DNA of 64,000 nt from an uncultured virus (IMG/VR IMGVR_UViG_3300030450_003626) (lineage: Duplodnaviria; Heunggongvirae; Uroviricota; Caudoviricetes), in IMG/VR virus record IMGVR_UViG_3300030450_003626, one strand, 5' to 3'. The notes under the pieces were generated by a model, which saw nothing but the letters and a program-made list of their open reading frames with translations, was not told where the DNA came from and searched no databases. Shown one piece after another: positions 2,781-54,754 of this stretch. The first letter of the stretch is position 1. Each line of letters starts with the position of its first letter. A program made the position numbers and the translations under genes.

Positions 2781-5060
2781 ATGCCTCTGACAAAAGTTCA
2801 ATTTAAGCCTGGTATCAACAGGGAAAGCACACGGTTCGCGGATTCCCAAGGCTGGTTCGACTCAAACCTCATACGTTTCCGAAAAGGGCGGCCAGAAAAG
2901 ATTGGCGGCTGGGAACGGGTCAGTGGATCATCTGTTGTAGGCACTGTCCGGTCCTTAAAGTGTTGGGTCACTTTGGACGCGTTAAAACTTATGGGCGTAG
3001 GTACGACCTCTAAATTCTATTTAGAGAACGGCAACGCCTTCTACGACATTACGCCTATCCGAAGCACTGCAACGTTAGGCACCAACCCCTTTACTTCAGG
3101 TAGTTCTGGGTCTGGTGTTATAACGGTGACCGCAGTAGGACATTCTGCTGTTGAAGGTGATTTTGTAACGTTTAGTGGGGCCACCGCTTTTGATGGCTTG
3201 ACCACGGCAGATCTTAATAAAGAGCAGGTTATAGCATCTATCGTCTCTGCGAATAGTTTTACGGTAGATACGGGAGGCTCTGCCTCATCTGGATCAACAG
3301 CGGGAGGAGGTTCGGCTGTAATCGCCAACTACCAAATCCATATCGGTAAAGAGGAGGTACTCTCAGAGGCTGGTTTTGGGGCGGGGTTTTGGGGCGGTCA
3401 GACCCTGACATACAGCCAAACCACCTTGGACGGTGGCATAAACGACAGCGTAACGTCGATAGCACTGACATCTGCGTCTGATTTTGAAACGGCTTCTACA
3501 ACGACATCTGCGGCAGTTGCTATCGTTGATACAACAATCAGTTTAGCAGATTCTTCTGGGATGCCTTCCAGAGGAACCGTCAAAATAGACAGCGAAAATA
3601 TCGAATACAGAACCAACTCAGGAAACGTTCTTAGTGACATCACCAGAGGGGCTGATGGAACCACGACAGCAACTCATTCCAGTGGTGCGACGGTGACCTT
3701 CGTTGGTCTGATACAGGTTGACGACGAACTCATACAGTACACGGGAAAGTCCAGTAACACTTTGAATGCAGGTGTTGTTCGAGGTGCAAAAGGCACTAGC
3801 GCGGCGGCTCATGCCGATGGCGATATCGTCAAAGAAGCCAATGGGTTTTACGGATTTGGTGACGCCGTAGCCCCCTTTATAACTGGCCACCCCGCGCGCC
3901 TGTGGTCCCAAGACAACTGGGGCGAAGACGTAATAATGAATGTCCGAGACGATAACGTTTATTATTGGGACGCTACGTTAGGGCTGTCCACTAGGGCAAC
4001 GGCTTTGAGCGCTCAAACAGGTGCGTCTGACGCACCCACTACGGCGCGTCAGGTGCTAGTATCAGACACGGACAGACACGTTATTTGTCTTGGAGCAAAC
4101 ACTCTTGGAACCACGGAACAGGATCTCTTATTGGTTCGCTGGTCAGACCAAGAAAGCGCTGTTGATTGGACGCCACAGGTAACGAACACGGCCGGCGACC
4201 AAAGGCTGTCTTCAGGTTCGGAAATAATCACAGGAATCGAAACCCGACAGCAAATTTTGATTTGGACAGATTCGTCCTTGTACGGCATGAGATTCGTTGG
4301 ACCGCCGTTTACGTTCTCATTTAACCTTTTAGCCAACAATATATCTATCATTTCCCCAAATGCCGCTACGGCAATTGGGGACCGCGTTTTTTGGATGGAC
4401 AAAGAAAACTTCTTCGTGTTTACGGGTCAAATACAAACTATTCCCTGTACCGTGTTACGGTATGTGTTTGACGACCTAAACTACGACAAGACTCTTAAAT
4501 TTTTTGCTGGCGCAAATCGAATGTTTAACGAAGTCTTCTGGTTTTATTGTTCTTCCAGTAGTGACGATGTCGATAGGTACGTTAAATACAACTACCAAGA
4601 CAACACCTGGGACATTGGTTCGTTGGCCCGGACGGCATGGGTTGATTTTGGGCTACACTCTAAGCCTCGAGCCGCGGGCGTTTCGGACAGTTTGAACTAC
4701 ATTTACTCTCACGAAACGGGGACCACGGACGACGGAGCGGCGATGTCCCCGTTTATTGAGTCTTCTGTGTTTGCGTTAGGGGACGGAGAACAGTTTTCGT
4801 TTATCAGTAGGTTAATACCTGATGCGGACATTTCCAGTTCAGATTCGGACACCACGATAGATTACGTGCTGAAGACAAGAGATTATCCCGGAAACAGTCT
4901 AACAACGAACTCCACGAGCTCTATTAAAAGTTCTACGGAACAGGCTTTTCTACGGTCAAGGGCGCGATCTGCGGTGCTGCGAGTTCAGAGCAGCGCGACT
5001 GACGTTCAATGGACCTTGGGCGATGTTCGGTTGGATATCCGACCTGATGGTAGGCGCTAA
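2781..5060 (+). CDS. Tail / packaged-DNA stabilisation (nozzle-type) virion protein
   Basis: 759 aa, beta-rich; LVRWSDQE...W...NTAG...L motif and DIRPDGRR C-terminus typical of podovirus tail hub proteins. Confidence 0.65.
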   Translation: MPLTKVQFKPGINRESTRFADSQGWFDSNLIRFRKGRPEKIGGWERVSGSSVVGTVRSLKCWVTLDALKLMGVGTTSKFYLENGNAFYDITPIRSTATLGTNPFTSGSSGSGVITVTAVGHSAVEGDFVTFSGATAFDGLTTADLNKEQVIASIVSANSFTVDTGGSASSGSTAGGGSAVIANYQIHIGKEEVLSEAGFGAGFWGGQTLTYSQTTLDGGINDSVTSIALTSASDFETASTTTSAAVAIVDTTISLADSSGMPSRGTVKIDSENIEYRTNSGNVLSDITRGADGTTTATHSSGATVTFVGLIQVDDELIQYTGKSSNTLNAGVVRGAKGTSAAAHADGDIVKEANGFYGFGDAVAPFITGHPARLWSQDNWGEDVIMNVRDDNVYYWDATLGLSTRATALSAQTGASDAPTTARQVLVSDTDRHVICLGANTLGTTEQDLLLVRWSDQESAVDWTPQVTNTAGDQRLSSGSEIITGIETRQQILIWTDSSLYGMRFVGPPFTFSFNLLANNISIISPNAATAIGDRVFWMDKENFFVFTGQIQTIPCTVLRYVFDDLNYDKTLKFFAGANRMFNEVFWFYCSSSSDDVDRYVKYNYQDNTWDIGSLARTAWVDFGLHSKPRAAGVSDSLNYIYSHETGTTDDGAAMSPFIESSVFALGDGEQFSFISRLIPDADISSSDSDTTIDYVLKTRDYPGNSLTTNSTSSIKSSTEQAFLRSRARSAVLRVQSSATDVQWTLGDVRLDIRPDGRR

Positions 5061-19604: not shown

Positions 19605-21118
19605 CTCGTTTGCGGCATGATAACGTGAAGTGATTTCTTGGCTCTGGTCGCCCCCACATAAAAGACCCGGTGTTCTATGCTAGGGTCTCTTAGATACGAC
19701 TTGTGGGCGGCGTAGGATAAATCCGGAACAAGCAATATGTTGTCCGCTTCGCCACCCTTCATTGAGTGTATGGTAGAAACCTTGATCCGCGGGTTCCTGA
19801 CGTTGTCCTTTCGGCGGAGAGCATTCAACACATAGTTCTTCGTATCAAGATCGATACGACTAAGGGCTTGGTGCCAGCGCGCAGAGCCGCTCTGGAGCAA
19901 CCCAAACTTGTCGTAGGCGTCCGACATGTAGACCTGATCGTCCGAAGGTATCCCCAGAAGGGGCCTTGAACGCGCTCCGAAGCCCTTGGAGTAGCCTTCT
20001 TCGGATTTTAGGAAGGAGTAGAGGTTGCGAACCTTCTCGCCCGTCAGAGCGTTCCCTCGGCACCAAATCTCCCAATCCTCAATCGCCTCGTAGGTTTTCA
20101 GCGGAATGCTCGGATGACCGTTCCGGCTGTAGACCCAACCCTCATCGCGTAGAACCGTAGCGATGGTACTCGCGATTCGGTTCGTTCGAGCCAAAACACA
20201 CCACTCGCCCTCATCGATCGGTACATCCCAAACATCGTGGTGGTAACGCACGCTGCCTTCTTCATCCTTGGGCCGCCACGCCTTCGGAGCTCTGTCCCTG
20301 ATGCGGTTAACAATATCCTGGGCTTGGCGCCAAACGGACACCGGCAACCGATAGGATTGACTCAAGACTGTCTTCTTCTCTGTCGCGGAGAGAAACGCGC
20401 CAACATCGGCGCCTTGGAAATTCATTATAGCTTGGTCGTCATCGCCCGTAAAAACCTGTATGTGAGGATTCTTCCGAAGTACACCGACCATGGCCCATTG
20501 AAGGGTGGACAGATCTTGGGCCTCGTCAACAAACAAGGCATCAATGTCTGGGCACAAGTCCTCCCGCACGAAATTCTCAATCATGTCTGTGAAATCGATC
20601 TTCCCGCGGACAGACTTATAGTCCTCATACGCACGTACCAAACGCCTCAATTCCGGCCACTTAACGTTGTAGTCTGCCAGTTGCCGGTGCATCTCCTCGA
20701 GTTCGATACACTTGCTACGCGCTAGATGATACTGGCTCATGTAGAAGTCGCCCTTGGACGGCCCCAGCGTGTCAAAGTCAGACTCCGTGAAGGCGGAGCG
20801 TCCCCTGCCAAAAGGTATCCCGACCTCTTGCCCAATTTCTTTCATGTCTGCGAGGCCGATAACATCATCGGAACGGTACCCGCCAGCACGAAACGCCATG
20901 GAATGCAGCGTTTGGAAATAAGGCATATCTCTTTCGTCAATACCCCAATCCCGGCTAACCCGTTCGCGGCTCTCCTGCGCCGCCTTCCGCGTAAAAGAGA
21001 CGCACGCGATACGATCAGGCGGGATACCCTGTTCGATGCACTCCCGAATCCTGTTTGAATTGGTTTGGGTCTTCCCCGTTCCCGGCGGTCCTAAGATAGT
21101 CTCATGTTGATCAGTCAC
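19586..21118 (-). CDS. Superfamily 1 (UvrD/Rep-like) helicase
   Basis: GPPGTGKT, VDEAQD, GDDDQAI, QSYR, STIHSMKGGE and YVGATRAK motifs. Confidence 0.95.
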   Translation of the reverse strand: MTDQHETILGPPGTGKTQTNSNRIRECIEQGIPPDRIACVSFTRKAAQESRERVSRDWGIDERDMPYFQTLHSMAFRAGGYRSDDVIGLADMKEIGQEVGIPFGRGRSAFTESDFDTLGPSKGDFYMSQYHLARSKCIELEEMHRQLADYNVKWPELRRLVRAYEDYKSVRGKIDFTDMIENFVREDLCPDIDALFVDEAQDLSTLQWAMVGVLRKNPHIQVFTGDDDQAIMNFQGADVGAFLSATEKKTVLSQSYRLPVSVWRQAQDIVNRIRDRAPKAWRPKDEEGSVRYHHDVWDVPIDEGEWCVLARTNRIASTIATVLRDEGWVYSRNGHPSIPLKTYEAIEDWEIWCRGNALTGEKVRNLYSFLKSEEGYSKGFGARSRPLLGIPSDDQVYMSDAYDKFGLLQSGSARWHQALSRIDLDTKNYVLNALRRKDNVRNPRIKVSTIHSMKGGEADNILLVPDLSYAAHKSYLRDPSIEHRVFYVGATRAKKSLHVIMPQTRWSYDI

Positions 21119-21560
21119 TCTCTACACCCCATTTAAATTTCAGCTGCCCATAGACCGGTTGCCAATCCCTGCCCGGCCTGTTCAGCCAAGACCCCGACCC
21201 ATCAGTTTCTCCGATAATCTTCCAGCCTGCGCCACGCAAACTAGACCCACTTTCCGACTTCAATGTATAGGTGATCATTTTCTTGCCCCCCATCTGCTGC
21301 CAGACTCTCCAACAACGACCATATAAAAATGAACAAGTGTTCTTGGGGCTGTCATCTAAAACACAAAGCCGGGTTACCTCTGCCGTAAAACCGTCATCAT
21401 TCTTCCGTGCAATCGGCCGTCCCACTATCGCAACCCCCAAAAGGCTATCGCCATCACTGGCACCGATGCAGAATTTTGCGCCTTGCACAGGTTTGTTGTG
21501 CCTGTGGAAGTTCCGCACAAATTCATTGGACTCTCGGAGTGTCATAGGAACGACCATCAA
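21111..21560 (-). CDS. XF1762-family phage protein
   Basis: HRHNKP, GVAIVGRPIAR, EVTRLC, CSFLY and ESGSSLRGAGW motifs. Confidence 0.7.
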   Translation of the reverse strand: MMVVPMTLRESNEFVRNFHRHNKPVQGAKFCIGASDGDSLLGVAIVGRPIARKNDDGFTAEVTRLCVLDDSPKNTCSFLYGRCWRVWQQMGGKKMITYTLKSESGSSLRGAGWKIIGETDGSGSWLNRPGRDWQPVYGQLKFKWGVESD

Positions 21561-27731: not shown

Positions 27732-27906
27732 CGTCTACTTCAAGCGCTTCTCTGGCAGTGCGGCCGAGCCATTGCACGCACGTGCCACCCTCCAAACCAA
27801 GGGACGAAACGTCGGCAATGTCCTGTAAAGCCAACCGCAGTTTTTCAATTCGGACTTTCTCGTCCACTATCATGTCATTCGGCTCCTTCAGCCGCGGCAA
27901 TAGCAT
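27706..27906 (-). CDS. Hypothetical protein
   Basis: Short ORF in operon direction. Confidence 0.4.
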   Translation of the reverse strand: MLLPRLKEPNDMIVDEKVRIEKLRLALQDIADVSSLGLEGGTCVQWLGRTAREALEVDDEDQQWGN

Positions 27907-28855
27907 ACCCTATTTCTTCCGCGATTTGCGGGATGATCGTGTTTCCCAAGGCACGCAACTGAGATACTCGATTGGGTACCCCATGAGCCAAGCGACCCAC
28001 ATCGGGTTCAAACTGCCACCAAGCCTGTGGCGTTCGGCCGCCGACTTCTGACCACGGCCCTTGGCCGCCCCCACATCCGGCGTCGGAAACATCTGAACCG
28101 CCAACGTCAAAGGCGTTCCCCCCTGGCTGTACTCCTTCGTCCGCTCCGTGGCGCTGTCCTGCGTCGGCGTCGGCCACATGCCCCTTGCCTTTGCCGCCTT
28201 GCGTGAGTTGCTCCCGCCGTCTAAGCCCGTTGTCCGTGGCGTCGGCCACAAAGTCGAAACCCAGTTGCCGCTGCCGGATGTTGCCATCGAAGGCGCCATC
28301 TGGTTCGCTTTCGCTGTCGGCGTGTGCAACAATCCAGAGTCGCTGCCGGATGTGCGGGGCGCCAACCGCGCAAGCTGGAATATTAAACGTCCTTGTGGCG
28401 TAGCCTTCGTTTTCCAAGTCAGAGAGTACTTCGTCCAAGCCCAGTTGGACGAGCCCAATAACGTTTTCTCCAACAACCCAAGTGGGCCTGCATTCCCGGA
28501 TAAGTCTAAACATTTCCGGCCAGAGGTGGCGGGGGTCGTCTTGAGCTCGTTGCTTTCCTGCGTGGGAAAATGGCTGGCAAGGGAATCCTCCGCAAATAAC
28601 ATCGGGTCGGGTCGGGAGGTCGGGTCCTTGGACATTTCTAATATCCTCCAAAACAGGAACGTCGGGCCAATGATGCTTCAGAACCGCTTGGCAATACGGA
28701 TCCTGCTCTACAAAACAAGTCGTACTAAAAAAGCCGGTGGCCTCGAGCCCTCGCGCGAAGCCACCGATTCCCGAAAATAGGTCCAGTGTCTTTAAAGCCA
28801 CTGAAACATGCCAGCCAACAAGCCACCCAAAAACACCAGAGCAAAATATTCCCAA
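27875..28855 (-). CDS. C5 cytosine DNA methyltransferase, large polypeptide (lacks motif IX)
   Basis: DLFSGIGG (I), GGFPCQPFS (IV), ENV (VI), HIRQRLW (VIII), LRALGN (X); true start probably near 28804. Confidence 0.9.
   Translation of the reverse strand: MGIFCSGVFGWLVGWHVSVALKTLDLFSGIGGFARGLEATGFFSTTCFVEQDPYCQAVLKHHWPDVPVLEDIRNVQGPDLPTRPDVICGGFPCQPFSHAGKQRAQDDPRHLWPEMFRLIRECRPTWVVGENVIGLVQLGLDEVLSDLENEGYATRTFNIPACAVGAPHIRQRLWIVAHADSESEPDGAFDGNIRQRQLGFDFVADATDNGLRRREQLTQGGKGKGHVADADAGQRHGADEGVQPGGNAFDVGGSDVSDAGCGGGQGPWSEVGGRTPQAWWQFEPDVGRLAHGVPNRVSQLRALGNTIIPQIAEEIGYAIAAAEGAE
27910..28635 (-). CDS. Putative second methyltransferase polypeptide in an alternate frame (TRD plus motif IX)
   Basis: Nested same-strand ORF with four (W/H/F)PTP-type repeats and LNPMWVAWLMGYP, resembling motif IX. 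Confidence 0.7.
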   Translation of the reverse strand: MSKDPTSRPDPMLFAEDSLASHFPTQESNELKTTPATSGRKCLDLSGNAGPLGLLEKTLLGSSNWAWTKYSLTWKTKATPQGRLIFQLARLAPRTSGSDSGLLHTPTAKANQMAPSMATSGSGNWVSTLWPTPRTTGLDGGSNSRKAAKARGMWPTPTQDSATERTKEYSQGGTPLTLAVQMFPTPDVGAAKGRGQKSAAERHRLGGSLNPMWVAWLMGYPIEYLSCVPWETRSSRKSRKK

Positions 28856-28861
28856 CCCATC

Positions 28862-29020
28862 CTACTCTCCCAGTTCTCTTTGCGAGACACCAACTTCCAT
28901 AAGTTTCGTAACATTAACCTCTCCTTGATTGTCACAAACGTTACAATCAGACACCGAATCGTCATCCGCGTTACGAACGTAACCGTTCCCGTAACACGTG
29001 GTACAGATTTCCCTAGGCAT
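28862..29020 (-). CDS. Small DnaJ-type zinc-finger protein
   Basis: CTTCYGNG...CNVCDNQG; GGAGG RBS. Confidence 0.6.
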   Translation of the reverse strand: MPREICTTCYGNGYVRNADDDSVSDCNVCDNQGEVNVTKLMEVGVSQRELGE

Positions 29021-29786
29021 TTTCTTCCTCCCTGTCACTCGCCACCAGAACAGGCGACGGCCGGTTGAATTGAAATACCGCACGGGCAAAGCCGCGCGGG
29101 GTCGCACTGCGGATGTTCTTGGTCCTTAACGACTTGCCGCCCGTCTTGCCCAAAATAGGCGAAAACACCCTGCTCTTCGTCGGATCGGTCCTGTCATACG
29201 CAATAGACAAGTGCGGAACACTGCGAAGCATCGGCATCTTGAACCCGCCACCCGTCCATAGACAGGTGCGCTTGCGGTACGCATCACGCGGCGGAATAAT
29301 GTCAGGCCATTTCGGATGAACATCGTCCTCTGGCAAATAACCACCAAAATCGCACGGGTCAAACCTGTGATCAGGCTTGTGCCACAAACGCGATAACGCA
29401 CCCACAGGGTTCTCAATGTAGTACGGGCAACCCAAAGACCCCGCAAACCAATCAGTTAACAGAACATGATTCGCCGCTTCCGTCTGAAAATCCGGATTGG
29501 CCTTTGCCTTCTTGGACCACCAACGCGCACCAGACGCCGCAAGGTCCGTACAAGGCGGGAACGCACTCATGAAGACAGCGCTGTCCGCATGGCGATGCAG
29601 TAAACAACGCAATGTATCTAAGTCGTACAGGTCAGCGTGCGCGTAAGTGATAGAGCCAGAACGGTGGATCGAGGTGGTGGAAGTGGAATGCTGAATGTCA
29701 TACGCAAAACACTCATACCCAGCCTCTGCCCACGGGCGTAAAGCCTCGCCCGTGTAGTCATACAACGAAATAACTTGGTTTCTCAT
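29013..29786 (-). CDS. Phage Dcm-like DNA methyltransferase
   Basis: ISLYDYTG, FPPCTDLA, IENPV, YRKRTCLW and RSATPRGFA motifs. Confidence 0.75.
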   Translation of the reverse strand: MRNQVISLYDYTGEALRPWAEAGYECFAYDIQHSTSTTSIHRSGSITYAHADLYDLDTLRCLLHRHADSAVFMSAFPPCTDLAASGARWWSKKAKANPDFQTEAANHVLLTDWFAGSLGCPYYIENPVGALSRLWHKPDHRFDPCDFGGYLPEDDVHPKWPDIIPPRDAYRKRTCLWTGGGFKMPMLRSVPHLSIAYDRTDPTKSRVFSPILGKTGGKSLRTKNIRSATPRGFARAVFQFNRPSPVLVASDREEENA

Positions 29787-29812
29787 AACTCTCCCTTTCT
29801 AAGTTCTCGCGT

Positions 29813-29842
29813 ATTGTAGCATGAATCATGGACCACGGTCAA
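29813..29842 (-). promoter_or_regulatory. Sigma70-like promoter for the methyltransferase operon
   Basis: TTGACC-18 bp-TACAAT on the minus strand. Confidence 0.6.
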
Positions 29843-29849
29843 ATGTGAA

Positions 29850-30193
29850 TTGCCTTGCCATGCCCGGAGTTGCCCAACCGTGCCGCGCCGTGCTTCGCCA
29901 CGACTGACTTGCCTTGCCATGCCCGGCCTTGCCCTACCCGGCCTTGCCATACCGCAACTGCCTTGCCTTGCCGCACGCTGACTCGCCAGGCCGCACGCTG
30001 CCACGCCTAGCCTAAACTGACTTGCCCGGCCGGACCTTGCCTCGCCATAACTGCCTTGCCTTGCGTTGCCGAACCCGGCCCGGCCCCGCCTGACCTTGCT
30101 GTGCGTTGCCACACCGCGCCATGCCTAAACTGCCTTGCCTTGCCTAGCGGTGCCGTACCTTGCCCCGCCCCGCCTCGCCCAGCCGCGACTGAC
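29850..30193 (-). ncRNA. GGY-NN pentamer array, six units; putative guide-RNA precursor
   Basis: 64 pentamers counted by hand, 49 starting GGY and all 64 with a pyrimidine at position 3; register slips only at six GKCA-GTY junctions; starts 5 nt after the upstream stop codon. Confidence 0.8.
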
Positions 30194-30198
30194 TCGAG

Positions 30199-30675
30199 TT
30201 AAGGACTGATCAGGTAATCCCCGTGACTCTTCAAATCACGGCACAAGGCCCGCATACTGCGCGCACGATTAGCCTGAGAAGCGTCCATCTTCAATTCAGA
30301 CAAAGCCTCAAGCTTCGCCGATAATTGATCGACGCTGCCCACAACCTCACCGATTACAAAATCAAGCTTGGACTGATCCTTCACAACACGCTGCAAAGGC
30401 TCATAACGACGGTCAGGGCTGTCGTTGATCTCAACAGAAACATACTTGGGCGTCCTGCTTCCCGAAGGCGTAACAATCTTTACCCGCTTGATCAAAACAC
30501 GCGCCTGACTGATCCGATGCTGATGACCCGCCTTGGCATCGTCCCACTCAAACCATGAGTGGAGCGGGTTGTTGGGGTCCTTTGCGACCTCAACAACCGC
30601 CTCTGGCGTCAGACCAGTTTCTGTCTGGTCAATCCTGTCTAACTCATCGGATAAAACAGAGTTTTTCAACACCAT
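30199..30675 (-). CDS. Accessory protein of the RAMP/array module, function unknown
   Basis: 158 aa; LTPEAVVE.AKDPNNPLHSWFEWDD..A...R..QAR motif; TAATG-coupled to the RAMP gene. Confidence 0.75.
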   Translation of the reverse strand: MVLKNSVLSDELDRIDQTETGLTPEAVVEVAKDPNNPLHSWFEWDDAKAGHQHRISQARVLIKRVKIVTPSGSRTPKYVSVEINDSPDRRYEPLQRVVKDQSKLDFVIGEVVGSVDQLSAKLEALSELKMDASQANRARSMRALCRDLKSHGDYLISP

Positions 30676-31301
30676 TATGCCGCCTCCGAAAGCTCACTGA
30701 CCATGGCAACGTCACCCAATTCAAAACGACCAAAATCGCCGTTCTTCTCAGGGCGCCACTCACCAATGCCAACGGACAAACCCGCACGATACAAAAGAGA
30801 CGCAATCGAAGACGCCGAAATGTTGTCCTCGTCATATTCAATCGTCAGGGTAGCACTCCATTGCGGGAACTCAGGACGATACCGAAGGTCCATGGCCTGT
30901 TGGACCTTGACCTCATCCGTCCGCATTATCGGCTCCCCGTGAATACGAACGCACGGGATTTGACGAACAACATCACGACCATCAGCCTCAATGAAAAACA
31001 TCTGACGAGCGTCAGTCATGGTGATCCCGTCAACCATCTTGCTGGCACGAATTGCCGCCTGCTTGAAAGCATTACAAGGAAAACCATACGAACCGTCTTC
31101 GAGCTTATAAAAACAGGCTTCATACTCCTCCTGCGGTTTACGCTTCTCACGCTTTACCGCTTTCTTGATGCCCGCGTGCTTATCCTGCATCTGCCTACGG
31201 ACCTTTTCCGAATACGCATTGCAGATCAACCCCGACCGACTCTTGATCGAAAGGTTCAACACGTTAAAGTTTACAGGCTGGATCTCAACAAGATTACTCA
31301 T
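30675..31301 (-). CDS. Stand-alone RAMP (Cas7/Csm3-like) RNA-binding protein, 208 aa
   Basis: N-terminal beta strand then SGLI; YGFPCNAFKQA (like the P.SS.KG motif of Cas7-group RAMPs); RPEFPQW; C-terminal Gly-rich loop AGLSVGIGEWRPEKNGDFGRF; GGAG RBS. Confidence 0.75.
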   Translation of the reverse strand: MSNLVEIQPVNFNVLNLSIKSRSGLICNAYSEKVRRQMQDKHAGIKKAVKREKRKPQEEYEACFYKLEDGSYGFPCNAFKQAAIRASKMVDGITMTDARQMFFIEADGRDVVRQIPCVRIHGEPIMRTDEVKVQQAMDLRYRPEFPQWSATLTIEYDEDNISASSIASLLYRAGLSVGIGEWRPEKNGDFGRFELGDVAMVSELSEAA

Positions 31302-31333
31302 CACTTTCTCCATCTCTTTCTTTGTGGATAACC

Positions 31334-31363
31334 ATAGTACCTTTAAACATGGACCATGGTCAA
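31334..31363 (-). promoter_or_regulatory. Sigma70-like promoter of the RAMP module
   Basis: TTGACC-18 bp-TACTAT; shares 15/16 nt (TTGACCRTGGTCCATG) with the promoter at 29827-29842. Confidence 0.6.
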
Positions 31364-31430: not shown

Positions 31431-31545
31431 AAGTGTATAAGTGTATATGGGTGTATTTTCTACCTGTAGCAGGTTGATAATGTTCAATTTAGGTCAATAC
31501 ACTCTTTATACAGACTATACACTTGGTACCCTTTTTATACACTTT
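31431..31545. repeat. Cluster of inverted GTGTAT / ATACAC repeats in an AT-rich intergenic region
   Basis: Three GTGTAT copies (31433-31456) face three ATACAC copies and one ATACAG (about 31497-31542). Confidence 0.6.
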
Positions 31546-31621
31546 TCTAGCCGCACGGCCATTTGACCATGGGAAATAACAGGGTTATTTTGAAAAGTGC
31601 TTGTTATAGGGAGAGACCTCG

Positions 31622-32209: not shown

Positions 32210-32594
32210 AAATAGGTTTGGGGGAGGTATCCCAGACGTTCATGTATGCGCGGAAAGTTTGGCTTTTTGGATAGAACTCAAAACAACCAAGACTAACCGC
32301 GTAAATGTTTCAGCACATCAAGTTGCTTGGAATTTTGCGTATTCTCAGTCGGGTGGCGTAAGTTTCTTCCTTGTTGCCCCTCTCTCTTCCTCAAACCTAT
32401 ATTTGTTTGACGGTAGCCAAGGTCGGGGCCTCGCGGAACACGGACTTAGGTCGGGGTCGGTCGGGTCAGGGACAATGGTCCCGTGCCTTTGGTCGGGGCC
32501 GGTCGGGTCGGGGTCGGGGTTTTTCGATGCGTTGCTCGAGATCGTTCGGGGTCGTGTCGGGGCCGGTGGCCCGCGGCAATCTGCCGCCGAATAA
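32130..32594 (+). CDS. PD-(D/E)XK nuclease, Holliday junction resolvase / VRR-NUC-like
   Basis: E..., RIEN..GGGIPDV, WIELK and HQVAW motifs. Confidence 0.75.
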   Translation: MAQNPETLMWKNLRAKMPKHWHTTRIENRFGGGIPDVHVCAESLAFWIELKTTKTNRVNVSAHQVAWNFAYSQSGGVSFFLVAPLSSSNLYLFDGSQGRGLAEHGLRSGSVGSGTMVPCLWSGPVGSGSGFFDALLEIVRGRVGAGGPRQSAAE

Positions 32595-33678: not shown

Positions 33679-33787
33679 GGTGATTTTCCCGTTGTTGGTT
33701 GTTGACGGTCCTATATTACCATTATTTTCCAGGATGTCAAGTCGGGTTTATCGGGTCGGTCGGGGTCGGGTCGGTCGGGGTCGGGGC

Positions 33788-51972: not shown

Positions 51973-52481
51973 TGGCTATTGGATCATCCGCAGTTTGCGG
52001 AAGTTACAAGCGTGAGATAAATGCGGGCATTCATTTTTGGACTTCGCACTCCCGTGGGGACGGCACTACCATTAACGCAGATACCTTTAAGATAGCGTTG
52101 TTCACCAACAGTTCGTCTATTGATGCCGACACCACGGGTTATTCAACAAGCAACGAGGTTAGCGGTACGAACTACACCGCAGGCGGAGAAGCGTTGTCGA
52201 GTGTAACGATAGGACTCGCAGACAACAGCAGTTCTGTTCCTACAGCGTTTATAGACATGGCGGATGTTACGTGGTCTTCAGCCACTATTACGGATGCGCG
52301 AGGTGCCCTGATTTATAACTCTACGTTAGCAAACGCAGGAACCGCGGGCACTACAACCCACGCGGCAAAGCCCGCCGTTTGTGTGATTAACTTTGGCGCG
52401 GACAGTTCTTCGAGTGCCGGTAACTTTACTGTTACGATGCCCACAAACGACGCTAACAACGCTTTGATTCGTATTGCGTAA
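51972..52481 (+). CDS. Tail-associated structural protein
   Basis: FKIALFT, EVSGTNYTAGG, ARGALIYN and A.IRIA motifs. Confidence 0.65.
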   Translation: MAIGSSAVCGSYKREINAGIHFWTSHSRGDGTTINADTFKIALFTNSSSIDADTTGYSTSNEVSGTNYTAGGEALSSVTIGLADNSSSVPTAFIDMADVTWSSATITDARGALIYNSTLANAGTAGTTTHAAKPAVCVINFGADSSSSAGNFTVTMPTNDANNALIRIA

Positions 52482-53053
52482 TGTCTGTTTTTGGCTGGGG
52501 CAGAGGGACTTGGAACTCCGGGGCGTGGAATAGTTCTCTTCCAGTTACGGGAGTGTCCGCTGCTACGGCGGTTGGTAGTGTACGAGTAGACATACAGCTT
52601 TCCGTCACGGGAATTTCTGCTTCGACGGCAGTTGGCAGTGTTACGGTAGTTGGAACGGCGAACGTTACTCCTTCTGGGGTATCTTCGGCCACAGCGGTTG
52701 GTAGTGTAACTGTAGCGGGAGCGGCGAACGTTACTCCTTCTGGGGTATCTGCTGCTACAGCGGTTGGTAGTGTAACTATCAGCGTTGTTATGTCAGTTAC
52801 GGGGGTATCTGCTGCTACAGCGGTTGGTAGTGTAAGTGTATCGGGAACGGCGAACGTTACTCCTTCTGGGGTATCTGCTGCTACAGCGGTTGGTAGTGTA
52901 ACTGTAAACATCTCAACCGGGGTTACAGGGGTGCAAGCCTCTACGGCGGTTGGCAACGCATTTGTCTGGGGTATAATAGTTCCGGGGCAGACACCTGAAT
53001 GGGGCGGAATAGTTCCGGGGCAGACACCTGAATGGACTGATATAGCGGCATAG
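52481..53053 (+). CDS. Tandem-repeat beta-rich tail protein
   Basis: Seven GVSAATAVGSV-type repeats; GWGRGTW N-terminus. Confidence 0.7.
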   Translation: MSVFGWGRGTWNSGAWNSSLPVTGVSAATAVGSVRVDIQLSVTGISASTAVGSVTVVGTANVTPSGVSSATAVGSVTVAGAANVTPSGVSAATAVGSVTISVVMSVTGVSAATAVGSVSVSGTANVTPSGVSAATAVGSVTVNISTGVTGVQASTAVGNAFVWGIIVPGQTPEWGGIVPGQTPEWTDIAA

Positions 53054-53062
53054 GAAGAGAAC

Positions 53063-54754
53063 ATGGCTTCTACCTTTACGACAAGTTTTGGCATAGAGAA
53101 GATTGGATCCGGAGAGCAATCAGGAACGTGGGGTACTACGACCAACCACAATTTTGATCTTCTGGACCGCATCGCTTCCTATACCACCGTGGCGTTGTCT
53201 GGTTCGACCCATACTTTGACAGTACGTGAAGCATCCCCAGGTTCTGGTACTGAAAACCTTCAAGATGGTATGTACCGGGTTATTAAATTTACGGGGGCGT
53301 TAGGAGCAAATAACACCGTAACTATCGCCCCGAATACGGCAAAGACATACTTTATTATTGAAAACGCCACTACCGATTCTGGTTCTAGCGGGCCGTATTC
53401 CGTTATTCTTTCTCAAGGTACAGGCGCAAACGTCACCGTCCAAAACGGTAAAAACGCGGTTGTTTATTGTGATGGCGCGGGTTCTGGCGCTGCCGTTGTC
53501 GATGCTCTCGCGGATCTTCAAATTGGTACGTTGGAAGTTACTGGCGCGGCCGCAATTGATGGTGCTGCTACACTAGGTAGTACTCTTGCGGTTACGGGCG
53601 CAGTGACGGGCAGTTCGACTATTCAAGGTACAACCATAACTGCCACTACAGCGTTTGTGCCAGATGCGTCAGATGGTGCTGCGCTTGGTACAACTTCATT
53701 AGAATTTAGTGATCTTTATCTCGCTGACGGTGCTGTAATTGGTTTTGGTGATGACCAAGATGTAACGCTGACCCATGTTGCTGATACTGGACTGCTTTTA
53801 AACAGTACAATGGCGCTTCAGTTTAATGACGCTTCTCAATATATCAACGCCCCAAGCGCCACTATTCTAGATATCAATGCTACAGATGAGATTGAACTTA
53901 ACGCTACATTAGCAGATGTTAATGCCAACCTAGATGTGTCAGGTACTATAGTGGGCGCATCTACTATCCAAGGCACAACTATTACGGCTACAGGTAACTT
54001 AATCGCTAGTGGAACGGTTGAACCAGCAGGAGATACCTCTGCCGGTGACAACGCTGCAATTGGTTACACTGCCGCCGAAGGATTGATCTTAACCGGACAA
54101 GGCAGCACATCGGATCTGACGGTCAAAAATGACGCCGACGAAACAGTTTTTACGGTGCCAACCGGCTCCGACGATATTTTGTTTCCCGATAACGCTAAAA
54201 TTCTACTTGGCGCTGGTAGCGATCTAGAGATTTATCATTCCGGAAGTCACAGTTATATTAACGACGCCGGGACAGGCAATTTGTATTTAGCTGGCGACAA
54301 CTTGGCGCTAACGTCTGCCGGTACATCCGAAAGTTATCTTCAGGCAGTTAAAGACGGTGCGGTTACTCTTTATCACGACAATAGTGCGAAAATCGCAACG
54401 ACCTCTGTTGGGGCAACTGTTACTGGCACGCTGATAGCCACCACAGATACAGACACAAGTAATACTGGCAGTGTCACTCTAGATTTTGGAGCTAACCAAA
54501 ATTTTGTGCTTACATTTACCGGAAACGTCACTCTAGCTAATCCATCTACAGAACAGGTTGGACAGGCTGGTGTTATAGTTTGTATTCAGGACGGGACCGG
54601 TAGCAGAACGCTTAGTCTGGGAACAGACTACGAAACTGCTGGAGGTTCTGGAATTACTCTTAGCACGGCAGCTAATGCGGTTGATGTTATACCATACTTT
54701 GTTAAGGCTTCTGGTTCAATCCAGTTAGGCGCACCACAACTGGCTTTCAGCTAA
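53063..54754 (+). CDS. Tail fibre protein
   Basis: GEQSGTWG.TTN.N N-terminus, DLEIYHSGSHSYI.D.GTGNL, and VTLYHDNSAKIATT fibre motifs. Confidence 0.75.
   Translation: MASTFTTSFGIEKIGSGEQSGTWGTTTNHNFDLLDRIASYTTVALSGSTHTLTVREASPGSGTENLQDGMYRVIKFTGALGANNTVTIAPNTAKTYFIIENATTDSGSSGPYSVILSQGTGANVTVQNGKNAVVYCDGAGSGAAVVDALADLQIGTLEVTGAAAIDGAATLGSTLAVTGAVTGSSTIQGTTITATTAFVPDASDGAALGTTSLEFSDLYLADGAVIGFGDDQDVTLTHVADTGLLLNSTMALQFNDASQYINAPSATILDINATDEIELNATLADVNANLDVSGTIVGASTIQGTTITATGNLIASGTVEPAGDTSAGDNAAIGYTAAEGLILTGQGSTSDLTVKNDADETVFTVPTGSDDILFPDNAKILLGAGSDLEIYHSGSHSYINDAGTGNLYLAGDNLALTSAGTSESYLQAVKDGAVTLYHDNSAKIATTSVGATVTGTLIATTDTDTSNTGSVTLDFGANQNFVLTFTGNVTLANPSTEQVGQAGVIVCIQDGTGSRTLSLGTDYETAGGSGITLSTAANAVDVIPYFVKASGSIQLGAPQLAFS
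54489..54582 (+). repeat. Exact 94-bp direct repeat, copy 2
   Basis: Identical to 1-94. Confidence 0.95.

What the first reader, a model, noticed from the sequence alone, without database searches (positions are those of the whole stretch)
29850..30193. The array parses into six units, each spelling a different dinucleotide string
Seen (minus strand): the 5-nt register is broken only by a 4-nt GKCA element followed by GTY, and every unit ends in GGCAA. Units: U1 30189-30131, NN = GC TG GA GG GG AA AC AC TA AA AA. U2 30130-30052, TA AT GC GT AA AC AA CA GG CG CG TC AA AA AA. U3 30051-30018, AT GA AA CC CG AA. U4 30017-29959, TA TA GT AG GC CT GA AG GC AA AA. U5 29958-29905, GC AT AA CG AG AA CG AT AA AA. 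U6 29904-29850, GT GA AC GC AC TG AA CG AT AA AA. Variation is concentrated in positions 4-5, unlike a decaying microsatellite. Inference: GGCAA-GKCA-GTY is a processing boundary and each unit is a separate guide. If one target base is skipped per dinucleotide, recognition in coding DNA could ignore wobble positions. I could not search for targets by eye.
Basis: partly seen in the sequence, partly recalled or inferred. Interest (0 to 1): 0.88.

Follow-up and report, generated by a model that had tools for sequence, protein, structure and literature searches.

The report
Phage VIPR guide-RNA array
This stretch is a row of six short guide RNAs belonging to VIPR, a recently described phage system in which a CRISPR-like protein reads such repeats to find rival viruses' DNA; it is a new example of a known system.

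Summary
On the minus strand, 30193..29850 is a (GGY-NN)n array of 64 pentamers.

It is the guide-RNA (vrRNA) array of a VIPR system, a kind described in 2026 preprints (10.64898/2026.04.26.720920 and .720927).
- The gene two places upstream (31313..30675, -) encodes a 212-aa protein with a confident Cas7/Csm3-like RAMP fold.
- That protein is homologous to the experimentally studied Vipr of phage SUSP1.
- An accessory gene lies between this gene and the array.
- 67 of 79 viral and 53 of 63 bacterial loci with a homologue carry a same-strand GGY-NN array.
- Sister phages with 93% identical flanks hold quite different units, cut at the same GKCA|GTY boundaries and exchanged as cassettes.
- The 1-nt-overlap architecture matches the preprint's "staggered arrays".

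I found no targets. Exact one-base-skip scans and mismatch-tolerant local searches gave nothing above controls, but their power was low. RNA ends could not be tested.

The parts
31334..31363 (-). Sigma-70-like promoter TTGACC-18-TACTAT upstream of vipr. It carries the motif TTGACCATGGTCCATG.
   Evidence: promoter scan, 9 of 12; the motif occurs without mismatch only here and just after the array. Function inferred.
30675..31313 (-). vipr: 212-aa RAMP (Cas7/Csm3-like) protein with the G-loop GIGEWRPEKNGDFGRF. The stop codon overlaps the next gene's ATG by 1 nt.
   Evidence: PHROG 4652 at E 2.9e-29, no Pfam family. tblastn to the SUSP1 vipr gene at E 3e-6, Donkeykong gp49 at 4e-32 and ODay gp19 at 7e-41. 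hhalign against SUSP1 Vipr: probability 97.7%, E 1.8e-12. AF2 pLDDT 89.1. Foldseek and VIA top hits are Csm3/Cmr/Cas7.
30199..30675 (-). vap-like accessory gene, 158 aa, of unknown fold. It is not similar to SUSP1 vap1.
   Evidence: PHROG 15946 at E 3.4e-24, no Pfam family. No BLASTP alignment to SUSP1 agp038. A homologue lies next to vipr in 73 of 79 viral loci and in Donkeykong, ODay and Cy-LDV1. No PDB sequence hit with E below 0.29. The Atlas shows only viral hypothetical proteins.
30190..30193 (-). Leading GTCA boundary element, 5 nt after the vap stop codon (TAA, 30201-30199).
   Evidence: The same ...GCAAGTCA|GTT follows the stop codon directly in L008 and L017.
30131..30189 (-). Unit U1 (59 nt, 11 pentamers + GGCA). 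NN = GC TG GA GG GG AA AC AC TA AA AA.
30052..30130 (-). Unit U2 (79 nt, 15 pentamers + GGCA). NN = TA AT GC GT AA AC AA CA GG CG CG TC AA AA AA.
30018..30051 (-). Unit U3 (34 nt, 6 pentamers + GTCA). NN = AT GA AA CC CG AA. It is abnormally short and may be truncated.
   Evidence: All other internal units of the clade are 49-79 nt, apart from L013's 128-nt stretch.
29959..30017 (-). Unit U4 (59 nt, 11 pentamers + GGCA). NN = TA TA GT AG GC CT GA AG GC AA AA. It holds an internal 20-nt duplication.
   Evidence: TRF period 20 at 29970-30007.
29905..29958 (-). Unit U5 (54 nt, 10 pentamers + GTCA). NN = GC AT AA CG AG AA CG AT AA AA.
   Evidence: It shares its 3' half with U6 (TRF period 59).
29850..29904 (-). 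Unit U6 (55 nt, 11 pentamers). NN = GT GA AC GC AC TG AA CG AT AA AA. It is followed by TTCA instead of GKCA.
29813..29842 (-). Second copy of the TTGACCRTGGTCCATG promoter-like element (TTGACC-18-TACAAT with an extended -10 TG). It lies directly after the array and before the DNA methyltransferase gene (ATG at 29786).
   Evidence: 10 of 12.. The element is conserved after the array in L008, L009, L010, L012, L015 and L016, although the downstream genes differ.

Best explanation
The array is the vrRNA (guide RNA) array of a phage-borne VIPR system (Viral Interference Programmable Repeat). The system consists of vipr (31313..30675), an accessory vap-like gene (30675..30199) and six abutting guide units (30189..29850), all on the minus strand.

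Likely mechanism, step by step:
1. The three parts are transcribed as one operon from the promoter at 31363..31334. This is inferred: the genes overlap by 1 nt, the array starts 5 nt after the vap stop, and no terminator lies between.
2. The transcript is cut, or otherwise punctuated, at each GKCA|GTY step. There one pentamer overlaps the next unit by one G, which is the 'staggered' architecture. This gives RNAs of about 34-79 nt. Inferred.
3. One Vipr protomer binds each pentamer. It sequesters the flipped-out GGY and displays the NN. This is shown by cryo-EM for SUSP1. It is inferred here from the RAMP fold and from conservation of the thumb Arg and of the G-loop (D/E)-W-R.
4. The displayed dinucleotides pair with double-stranded DNA that reads NNxNNx..., so the skipped base falls on codon wobble positions. 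The filament then blocks transcription of a competing phage or satellite. This is shown for type II VIPR and inferred here; no target was found.

The closing steps of each unit (AA-GGC-AA-GKCA in five of the six; U3 has a single AA step and U6 ends before TTCA) probably serve as a minimal 3' handle, in place of the ~40-nt pseudoknot tail of SUSP1 vrRNAs.
For: - The array is a (GGY-NN)n array with conserved GGY and variable NN, and five of its six units have 10-15 pentamers, inside the published range of 9-16 (preprint).
- The neighbouring 212-aa protein is homologous to SUSP1 Vipr: tblastn E 3e-6 and hhalign probability 97.7%, E 1.8e-12 over 168 columns. The SUSP1 gene it hits is flanked by GGT-NN arrays.
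- Its AF2 model has pLDDT 89.1 and pTM 0.84.
- All 31 listed Foldseek PDB rows are CRISPR type III/VII effector subunits, best E 7.4e-7.
- VIA-align ranks 1-32 are all CRISPR RAMPs: Z 11.0 (rmsd 3.5, 155 aligned), 10.7 and 10.2.
- The residues that hold GGY in SUSP1 (R138, D177, W178, R179) align with R146, E185, W186 and R187. Across 106 family members R146, W186 and R187 are invariant; position 185 is E in 89, D in 15 and G in 2.
- The accessory gene is conserved beside vipr in 73 of 79 viral loci.
- Same-strand arrays of at least 12 pentamers lie within the flanks in 67 of 79 viral loci, against 1 locus with an opposite-strand array only. For bacterial genome loci the figures are 53 of 63 against 3.
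- In L008 and L017 the vap DNA is 93% identical to the window and the downstream 150 nt 88%, but the array only 71%, which is the floor for any two GGYNN arrays. Those arrays hold 8 and 10 different units with the same boundary.
- 52 of 54 internal units have a length of 4 mod 5. L008 and L017 share 7 whole units.
- In several relatives the array ends in a sense-strand hairpin followed by a T run (L043, L068, L205, L206; read by eye).
- No self-target: the best 1-nt-skip match in the window is at most 16 of 22, the same as reversed controls. The preprint reports the same.
Against: - No target was found. Exact 1-nt-skip scans of IMG/VR gave 0 hits for U1, U2 (12, first 10 and last 10 dinucleotides), U5 and U6, and 2 for U4.
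- The two U4 hits lie on unrelated contigs, do not extend into the AA steps and attract no other guide.
- U2 gave 0 hits in 596 Gb of genomes.
- U6 gave 12 hits in the metagenome collection. Their flanking proteins are unrelated to each other, and the number is about what my rough estimate of that collection's size predicts by chance.
- Mismatch-tolerant searches of 221 and 233 guides from relatives, against 0.5 and 1.55 Mb of related phage DNA, showed no clear excess for any skip length over reversed or shuffled guides.
- The window's Vipr has N32 where 101 of 106 relatives and SUSP1 have the His that contacts G1.
- U3 is too short for the published range.
- There is no SUSP1-like tail.
- The sense RNA is not unusually structured (z -1.69).
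- No RNA evidence exists for the array. One metatranscriptome contig covers only 30222-30389, inside vap.
Confidence: 0.9

Rival explanations
1. The locus derives from VIPR but its array no longer guides silencing. It could be a decaying array, or one whose RNAs act as decoys that occupy other phages' Vipr proteins rather than directing this phage's own attack.
For: No targets were found for any unit. U3 is truncated, and U4, U5 and U6 carry internal or shared duplications. The window's Vipr has N in place of the G1-contacting His. The October 2026 preprint reports vrRNAs used as redirecting decoys by satellites (abstract only).
Against: Both genes are intact and overlap as in an operon. GGY is kept in 63 of 64 pentamers at 2 of 3 positions or better. 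The same N32 sub-clade (L008, L017) maintains arrays with fresh, different units and exact boundaries, which implies ongoing selection. The target searches had low power.
Confidence: 0.05
2. The repeats act as double-stranded DNA: an array of 5-bp protein-binding sites upstream of the methyltransferase promoter, such as an operator or UP-like element, or a packaging or replication site.
For: The array ends 8 nt before a promoter-like element and lies in an intergenic region.
Against: The arrays track vipr, not the downstream gene, which differs among relatives. Their position varies: upstream of vipr in Donkeykong, between vipr and vap in ODay, on both sides of vap in Cy-LDV1. Yet they stay on the vipr strand: 67 loci against 1 and 53 against 3. 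A strand rule is not expected for duplex sites. The NN positions are hypervariable between 93%-identical phages.
Confidence: 0.02
3. The array is an RNA that wraps a ring-shaped RNA-binding protein in the manner of TRAP. TRAP binds 11 (G/U)AG triplets spaced by 2-3 nt (recalled, not from a call). The RNA would act as a sponge or attenuator.
For: GGC triplets recur every 5 nt and units often have 11 pentamers. This was my first guess.
Against: The partner next door is a Cas7-like RAMP homologous to a protein shown to form helical filaments on such RNA, not a TRAP-like ring. Unit sizes range from 9 to 15 pentamers. No Rfam family matches.
Confidence: 0.01
4. The region codes for a Gly/Arg/Ala-rich protein: the 109-aa ORF at 30112..29783. 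The equivalent stretch is annotated as hypothetical protein gp48 in mycobacteriophage Donkeykong.
For: An open frame of 109 aa spans most of the array. Some phage records annotate a CDS over their arrays.
Against: Unit lengths (4 mod 5) and unit numbers change between sister phages without regard to reading frame. The ORF runs through the next gene's promoter and ribosome-binding site. Neither this ORF nor Donkeykong gp48 matches a PHROG family. Other records leave the same stretch unannotated. The 5-nt periodicity is not a codon periodicity.
Confidence: 0.01

Closest known systems
VIPR systems with 'staggered' vrRNA arrays (bioRxiv 10.64898/2026.04.26.720920, fig. S18)
   Same: A Vipr RAMP protein, an accessory gene, and tandem GGY-NN guide units that abut with a 1-nt overlap. 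Here GKCA|G: the last pentamer's fifth base is the first base of the next unit. The system is phage-borne.
   Different: I could read only the legend of fig. S18, not the figure or the type tables. I therefore cannot say which of types I-VII this is, or whether the marine, mycobacteriophage and cyanophage members seen here are among the 664 published loci. The preprint says that the other two non-type-II architectures were confirmed by small-RNA sequencing, so by implication staggered arrays were not.
Type II VIPR of Escherichia phage SUSP1 (experimentally characterised; same preprint and 10.64898/2026.04.26.720927)
   Same: Homologous Vipr (hhalign probability 97.7%). Conserved thumb Arg and G-loop (D/E)WRP. 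Gene order vipr, accessory gene, downstream array on the same strand. Pentamer guides of 9-16 repeats.
   Different: Only about 24% identity. The accessory protein is unrelated to vap1. SUSP1 units are GGT-rich, are separated by about 60-nt spacers with a conserved leader, and end in a ~40-nt pseudoknot tail. Here the units are GGC-rich, directly abutting and tail-less, with a constant AA-GGC-AA-GKCA end. SUSP1 also has a vrRNA upstream of vipr; none is seen here.
Class 1 CRISPR-Cas effector backbones (Cas7/Csm3/Cmr4 with crRNA arrays)
   Same: The same RAMP fold (Foldseek E 7e-7; Z up to 11). One protomer per fixed RNA step, with a thumb that flips bases. A multi-unit array turned into separate guides. 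Units are gained and lost as cassettes.
   Different: No CRISPR repeats, no Cas1/Cas2 and no other cas genes. The step is 5 nt, not 6 nt. Three of every five guide bases are sequestered and the target is read with a 1-nt skip. The guide is itself the repeat. The system is carried by the virus rather than by the host.
TRAP-RNA recognition (trp RNA-binding attenuation protein)
   Same: A protein reads a conserved triplet repeated about every 5 nt along a single-stranded RNA.
   Different: TRAP is a ring that regulates an operon, and its spacers carry no information. Here the 'spacers' (NN) are the information and the protein is a filament-forming RAMP. This is a resemblance only, recalled from memory.

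Membership tests
VIPR system | A Vipr protein with the RAMP fold (RRM core, glycine-rich loop, thumb) encoded next to the repeats | tested here: met
   AF2 with a 106-sequence alignment: pLDDT 89.1, pTM 0.84. All 31 listed Foldseek rows are CRISPR Csm/Cmr/type VII subunits, best E 7.4e-7. VIA-align Z 11.0, 10.7 and 10.2 to Cmr/Csm3, with ranks 1-32 all CRISPR RAMPs. The G-loop GxGxWRPExxGxxG is invariant.
VIPR system | Sequence homology to an experimentally characterised Vipr (SUSP1) | tested here: met
   tblastn E 3e-6, 23.5% identity over 70% of the query. Profile comparison: probability 97.7%, E 1.8e-12, 168 columns. The SUSP1 gene that is hit is flanked by GGT-NN arrays.
VIPR system | Residues that hold the GGY bases (SUSP1 H17, R138, D177, W178, R179) | tested here: inconclusive
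   R146, E185, W186 and R187 align with R138, D177, W178 and R179; R146, W186 and R187 are invariant and position 185 is E or D in 104 of 106. The H17 equivalent is N32 in the window, as in 5 of 106 family members; the other 101 have H.
VIPR system | vrRNA of 9-16 tandem YNNGG (GGY/NN) repeats with conserved GGY and hypervariable NN | tested here: met
   Five of six units have 10-15 pentamers; U3 has 6. Entropy is 0.5-0.8 bits at GGY against 1.75-1.87 bits at NN. The NN content differs completely between phages whose flanks are 93% identical.
VIPR system | An invariable 3' tail capping each vrRNA (a ~40-nt pseudoknot in the SUSP1 clade) | tested here: not met
   There is no tail or spacer between units, only a constant AA-GGC-AA-GKCA end. 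The sense RNA is not unusually structured. The long tail defines type II, not all VIPRs: the preprint lists staggered arrays as a separate architecture.
VIPR system | An accessory (vap) gene in a minimal two-gene locus, with no CRISPR array or other cas genes | tested here: met
   A 158-aa gene overlaps the vipr stop and is conserved beside vipr in 73 of 79 viral loci. The surrounding ORFs are methyltransferases, terminase and similar, with no cas families. Its family differs from SUSP1 vap1, and which of vap1-6 it is could not be checked.
VIPR system | Array and vipr co-occur, on the same strand, across relatives | tested here: met
   67 of 79 viral loci; 8 of the 12 without an array are cut off by the contig end. 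53 of 63 bacterial genome loci. Opposite-strand-only arrays occur in 1 and 3 loci.
VIPR system | vrRNAs are expressed, processed to unit length and bound by Vipr | not testable with these tools
   All 24 runs found are kept as assembled contigs. The single RNA run covers only 30222-30389.
VIPR system | NN strings match DNA of competing elements under the 1-nt skip rule better than under other rules | tested here: inconclusive
   No hits above chance or controls. The large collections allow exact matches only, and the host is unknown.
CRISPR-Cas | Direct repeats separating unique spacers, plus cas genes (Cas1/Cas2 adaptation module, or an effector set) | tested here: not met
   No repeat-spacer structure and no cas family among the 69 window ORFs scanned with PHROGs. 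Only the RAMP fold is shared.

The most novel reading that the evidence does not exclude
In this tail-less, spacer-less 'staggered' type the only punctuation between guides is a single 4-nt step (GKCA|G). Unit ends may then be set by the register of the Vipr filament itself rather than by a dedicated RNA structure or nuclease.

New guides may arise by recombination between units on the shared GGY scaffold:
- L017 unit 5 looks like unit 7 with a piece of unit 4.
- The window's U5 and U6 share a 3' half.
- U4 carries an internal duplication.

That would be an acquisition route quite unlike CRISPR adaptation. Also not excluded: this type reads targets by a rule other than the one-base skip, which would explain why no targets appeared.
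Probability: 0.15. Interest if true: 0.6.

Novelty: new member of a known kind. Interest (0 to 1): 0.4.

Why it matters
The system itself (VIPR) was described in preprints of April-October 2026, so the finding is an independent rediscovery rather than a new kind.

Its value is as a clean natural example of the least-studied architecture: staggered, tail-less arrays, for which I saw no experimental confirmation in the preprint. It lies in a marine phage found in metagenomes of 16 studies. That phage has sister genomes whose arrays have turned over unit by unit while the flanks stayed 88-93% identical. This gives a ready comparative set for asking how vrRNA arrays gain and lose guides.

The same trio (Vipr homologue, PHROG-15946 accessory gene, GGCA-punctuated array) also occurs in Cluster F-type mycobacteriophages such as Donkeykong, in Gordonia phages and in a cyanophage. 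In some of those records the array is annotated as a hypothetical protein. That is a practical annotation correction, and those phages have culturable hosts in which the staggered type could be tested.

Tried and rejected
**Other readings**
- TRAP-like ring binding was my first guess. I dropped it once the neighbouring gene proved to be a RAMP.
- Rfam gathering scan of the whole window: 0 matches.
- Coding reading: no PHROG family for the 109-aa ORF or for Donkeykong gp48.

**Folds and accessory protein**
- The single-sequence AF2 fold of Vipr was useless (pLDDT 35.4). I repeated it with an alignment.
- vap function: no Pfam family, no BLASTP similarity to SUSP1 vap1, no PDB sequence hit with E below 0.29, and only viral hypothetical proteins in the Atlas.

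**Genome and host**
- The window's own assembly is not held. The nearest record, G001, has no match to the locus.
- Megablast of window 1-25000 against phages: no match. The other half was not searched, because one search was one base too long and I did not resend it.
- Host: TerL is about 57-64% identical to Pelagibacter phages HTVC027P and HTVC023P, phage 023Pt_psg01 and phage DSL-LC04. No bacterial genome locus has a Vipr more than 45% identical. The host remains unknown.

**Target searches under the 1-nt skip rule, exact matches**
- IMG/VR: U2 with 12 dinucleotides 0; U2 first 10, 0; U2 last 10, 0; U1 0; U6 0; U5 with AA AA 0; U4 2.
- The two U4 hits (L084, L085) are unrelated to each other and do not extend. 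Only one lies in the wobble phase. No other guide converges on their contigs.
- Genome collection, U2: 0.
- Metagenome collection, U6: 12 stretches, 10 of them distinct. Their frame-0 translations share only the forced 9-residue motif. I judge them chance hits, helped by the RNN codon bias of the pattern.

**Mismatch-tolerant local searches at skip 0-3**
- 221 guides against 0.51 Mb. Matches of at least 85%: 1, 6, 1, 1 for skips 0-3, against 2, 1, 1, 2 for reversed guides. One suggestive case: an L045 guide matches the L038 vipr gene at 17 of 18.
- 233 guides against 1.55 Mb. At most 1 mismatch: 1, 1, 1, 4, against 0-3 in three controls. No enrichment.
- U4 with up to 3 mismatches in 49 related viral records: 0.
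- An 11-dinucleotide guide from a Rhizobium leucaenae prophage of the same type, in 401 genomes of its family with up to 2 mismatches: 1 hit, 0 in the reversed control, which is chance level.

**RNA ends**
- Only Logan contigs were available. The RNA run shows nothing on the array.
- DNA contigs of runs X8 and X9 break inside the array, with loose ends that read as other GGY-NN units. One matches a unit of L008. This is a weak hint of array variants within populations.

**Other**
- VIPR type (I-VII) could not be assigned. Fig. 5A, figs S16-S18 and the data tables are not readable here; the supplement PDF holds only text and legends.
- Earlier findings of this scan: nothing.
Full report
**1. 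The observation**

On the minus strand, 30193..29850 reads GTCA, then six units of the form GTY-NN (GGY-NN)n GGC-AA GKCA. An independent chain parser gave the same six units and the same dinucleotide strings as the finding.

- Of 64 pentamers, 49 are exact GGY and 63 match at least 2 of 3 positions.
- Entropy is 0.64, 0.54 and 0.76 bits at positions 1-3, and 1.75 and 1.87 bits at positions 4-5.
- 39 neighbouring GGY pairs are exactly 5 nt apart, against 1.6 +/- 1.3 (maximum 7) in 2000 shuffles.
- No other run of four or more GGYNN exists in the window.
- Tandem Repeats Finder reports only fragments.

The description is accurate and far from chance. U3 (34 nt) is an outlier.

**2. Surroundings**

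The array is intergenic and lies on the coding strand of its neighbours.

- Upstream lie two overlapping minus-strand genes: 31313..30675 (212 aa) and 30675..30199 (158 aa). The array starts 5 nt after the second gene's TAA, with no terminator between.
- A sigma-70-like promoter, TTGACC-18-TACTAT, precedes the first gene.
- Directly after the array comes a second promoter-like element, TTGACC-18-TACAAT. It is followed by a ribosome-binding site and a DNA methyltransferase gene.
- The 16-mer TTGACCRTGGTCCATG occurs without mismatch only at these two places in 64 kb.
- The window as a whole is a phage genome with terminase, portal, head, DNA polymerase, primase, helicases and endolysins.
- Its DNA is held by 20 listed marine or estuarine metagenome and virome runs from 16 studies.
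- Its TerL is closest, at 57-64% identity, to phage 023Pt_psg01, phage DSL-LC04 and Pelagibacter phages HTVC027P and HTVC023P. The host is not established.

**3. The same thing elsewhere**

- blastn with the array alone found similar GGC-NN arrays in 22 Mycobacterium phage records (Donkeykong, Quico, Florinda, Zizzle and others) and in Cyanophage Cy-LDV1. Some records annotate a hypothetical CDS over the array and others annotate nothing.
- The 212-aa protein has homologues next to those arrays: Donkeykong gp49 at E 4e-32 and Gordonia phage ODay gp19 at 7e-41. It also has homologues in Felixounavirus and Suspvirus coliphages, including phiSUSP1 at E 3e-6.

**4. Literature**

What I read of that paper:
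- the outline, Results, Discussion and Methods sections 17 (part 1), 26 and 27;
- passages that include the legends of figs S17-S22;
- its supplement text, by term search only.

What it describes:
- VIPR systems consist of a small RAMP protein (Vipr), an accessory gene (vap) and vrRNAs made of 9-16 YNNGG repeats.
- GGY is conserved and NN is hypervariable.
- The NN dinucleotides pair with double-stranded DNA under a '1-nt skip rule', with the skipped base mostly at codon wobble positions.
- Natural targets are competing phages and satellites.
- Seven types are defined, with different array architectures. These include 'staggered arrays' in which neighbouring vrRNAs overlap by 1 nt.

A companion preprint, 10.64898/2026.04.26.720927, gives cryo-EM structures (outline and sections 5 and 6 read). 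One protomer binds per repeat. GGY is flipped out and held by H17, R138, D177, W178 and R179. NN is displayed for pairing.

For a third preprint, 10.64898/2026.10.15.759431, I saw only the outline and abstract.

The phiSUSP1 gene hit is indeed flanked by GGT-NN arrays, one upstream and three downstream of a second small gene.

**5. Testing membership**

- *Fold.* With a 106-sequence alignment AlphaFold2 gave pLDDT 89.1 and pTM 0.84. The single-sequence run had failed. All 31 listed Foldseek rows against the PDB are CRISPR type III/VII backbone subunits, best E 7.4e-7. The Foldseek-independent VIA-align search gave Z 11.0, 10.7 and 10.2 to Cmr and Csm3 chains, and ranks 1-32 are all CRISPR RAMPs.
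- *Homology.* The profile comparison with SUSP1 Vipr gave probability 97.7% and E 1.8e-12 over 168 columns.
- *Contact residues.* SUSP1 R138, D177, W178 and R179 correspond to R146, E185, W186 and R187. R146, W186 and R187 are invariant in the family, and position 185 is E or D in 104 of 106. H17 corresponds to N32 in the window, where 101 of 106 members have H.
- *Accessory gene.* The 158-aa protein is conserved beside vipr in 73 of 79 viral loci and in Donkeykong, ODay and Cy-LDV1. It is unrelated to SUSP1 vap1. It has no Pfam family, no PDB sequence hit and no named Atlas relative.
- *Co-occurrence.* A same-strand chain of at least 12 pentamers lies within the fetched flanks in 67 of 79 viral loci. 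Eight of the 12 loci without one are cut off by a contig end, one has two chains of 11, and three have room but no array. One locus has an opposite-strand array only. For bacterial genome loci from many phyla the figures are 53 of 63, against 3 with opposite-strand arrays only.

**6. Are the six units real units?**

Comparison says yes.

- L005 and L006 (Vipr 100% identical) have the same array with one substitution.
- L008 and L017 (Vipr 96% identical) have vap DNA 93% identical to the window and the 150 nt downstream 88% identical. Their arrays are only 71% identical, which is what any two GGYNN arrays share. They hold 8 and 10 units of different content, separated by ...GCAAGTCA|GTT.
- In 11 arrays of the clade, 52 of 54 internal units have a length of 4 mod 5. 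Lengths run from 49 to 79 nt, apart from the window's U3.
- The two exceptions are a fused pair in L013 and a unit with a 1-nt deletion in L016.
- Whole units are shared between sister arrays: 7 between L008 and L017, 1 between L009 and L010, and 1 between L013 and L014.
- More distant relatives, the actinophages and Cy-LDV1 use GGCA|GGC-NN as the 4-nt step.
- Reading the step as two pentamers that share one G gives exactly the '1-nt overlap' of the preprint's staggered arrays.
- In several relatives the array is followed by a sense-strand hairpin and T run (by eye), as expected for a transcribed element.
- The sense RNA of the window's array is not unusually structured (z -1.69; antisense z +2.2). 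That fits a protein-coated single strand, and no long tail is present.

**7.

I could not show targeting.

- *Exact scans of IMG/VR under the 1-nt skip rule.* Zero hits for U1, U6, U5 (with its AA AA steps) and U2 (12, first 10 and last 10 dinucleotides). Two hits for U4. The two U4 hits are unrelated contigs. The match does not continue into the AA steps, and none of 221 guides from relatives converges on them. For 18 specified bases, one or two chance hits are expected by my rough estimate of the collection's size.
- *Other collections.* U2 gave 0 hits in the genome collection. U6 gave 12 hits (10 distinct) in the metagenome collection. Most lie in an open frame with the skip at the wobble position. 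The flanking proteins are unrelated, however, and the pattern (RNN codons) favours that frame by composition. I count these as chance.
- *Mismatch-tolerant local searches at skip 0-3 with reversed and shuffled controls.* 221 guides against 0.51 Mb gave a hint: 6 matches of at least 85% at skip 1, against 1-2 elsewhere. Among them was an L045 guide matching another element's vipr gene at 17 of 18. The larger test of 233 guides against 1.55 Mb of whole related contigs showed no enrichment.
- *A same-type prophage.* One 11-dinucleotide guide from a Rhizobium leucaenae prophage of the same type gave one 2-mismatch hit in 401 genomes of its family, which is chance level.
- *Self-targeting.* There is none, as the preprint also reports for its systems.

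These searches have low power. The large collections allow exact matches only, no control patterns could be scanned there, and the host pangenome is unknown. The result is therefore 'not shown', not 'refuted'.

**8. RNA ends**

All 24 runs that hold the locus are available only as assembled contigs. The one metatranscriptome contig covers 30222-30389, inside vap. DNA contigs of two runs break inside the array, and their loose ends read as other GGY-NN units. One equals a unit of L008. This is a weak sign that array variants coexist in natural populations.

**9. Verdict**

The finding is a VIPR vrRNA array of the staggered, tail-less architecture, with its vipr and accessory genes, in a marine phage.

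- *Shown here:* the anatomy, the RAMP fold and homology of the neighbour, conservation of the trio and of the strand rule, and unit-wise turnover.
- *Inferred from the published type II work:* filament assembly on GGY, display of NN, one-base-skip DNA recognition and silencing of competitors.
- *Open:* processing at GKCA|G, the role of the constant AA steps, the function of short U3 and of the N32 variant, the accessory protein, and the targets.

Noticed in passing
window 31348-31363 (-) and 29827-29842 (-): The 16-mer TTGACCRTGGTCCATG, a promoter -35 box plus a partly palindromic spacer, brackets the vipr-vap-array cassette. These are its only two mismatch-free copies in 64 kb. The copy after the array is conserved in relatives whose downstream genes differ. 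It could be a shared operator, or the scar or boundary of a mobile cassette.
   Followed up: partly
L001 (Mycobacterium phage Donkeykong NC_051648) 2959-3309; also Florinda, Zizzle, ByChance and others: In several mycobacteriophage records the GGC-NN array is annotated as a protein-coding gene, for example gp48 'hypothetical protein'. Other records leave it unannotated. It lies just upstream of a Vipr homologue (gp49) and the accessory-gene homologue (gp50). gp48 is therefore probably a misannotated vrRNA array.
   Followed up: partly
L017 4079-4640 versus L008 4129-4572: L017 has two units more than its sister L008. Its unit 5 looks like a chimera: the 5' part of unit 7 joined to the GGCAT GGCAT piece of unit 4. 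This suggests that new guides arise by recombination between units.
   Followed up: no
L045 guide at 4059-4104 versus L038 1369: Under the 1-nt skip rule, one guide of a provirus-borne array matches 17 of 18 positions inside the vipr gene of another element. This fits the published idea that some vrRNAs target rival VIPR systems. It is a single case, and about 0.2 such hits are expected by chance over all guides.
   Followed up: no
window 33751-33786 (+) and 32491-32520 (+): Short G-rich tracts of irregular 4-6-nt period: TCGGGTCGGTCGGGG x2.3, and a (GGTCG)n-like tract. The first is intergenic and is followed by a terminator-like hairpin, GGGGC-ATAAAAAA-GCCCC. They do not fit the GGY-NN pattern with variable NN.
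   Followed up: partly
window 52616-52932 (+): Tandem repeats of 66 and 126 nt (4.5 and about 2 copies, 76-94% matches) lie inside or beside a structural-gene region (ORFs 52453-53172 on the minus strand and 53063-54754 on the plus strand). This may be a repeated domain of a tail or fibre protein.
   Followed up: no
window 27875-28855 (-), 29013-29786 (-), 21111-21560 (-): The phage carries two DNA methyltransferase genes (a C5 type with PF00145, and one in PHROG 757) directly downstream of the VIPR cassette, plus a Mom-like DNA-modification gene. Together these form a cluster of counter-defence or inter-phage conflict functions.
   Followed up: no
window 31440-31560 (-): The AT-rich region between the small terminase gene (plus strand) and vipr holds several copies of GTGTATA(A/G) and an 8-nt tandem repeat, ATAAGTGT x2.4. 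These may be operator or regulatory repeats of the divergent promoters.
   Followed up: no
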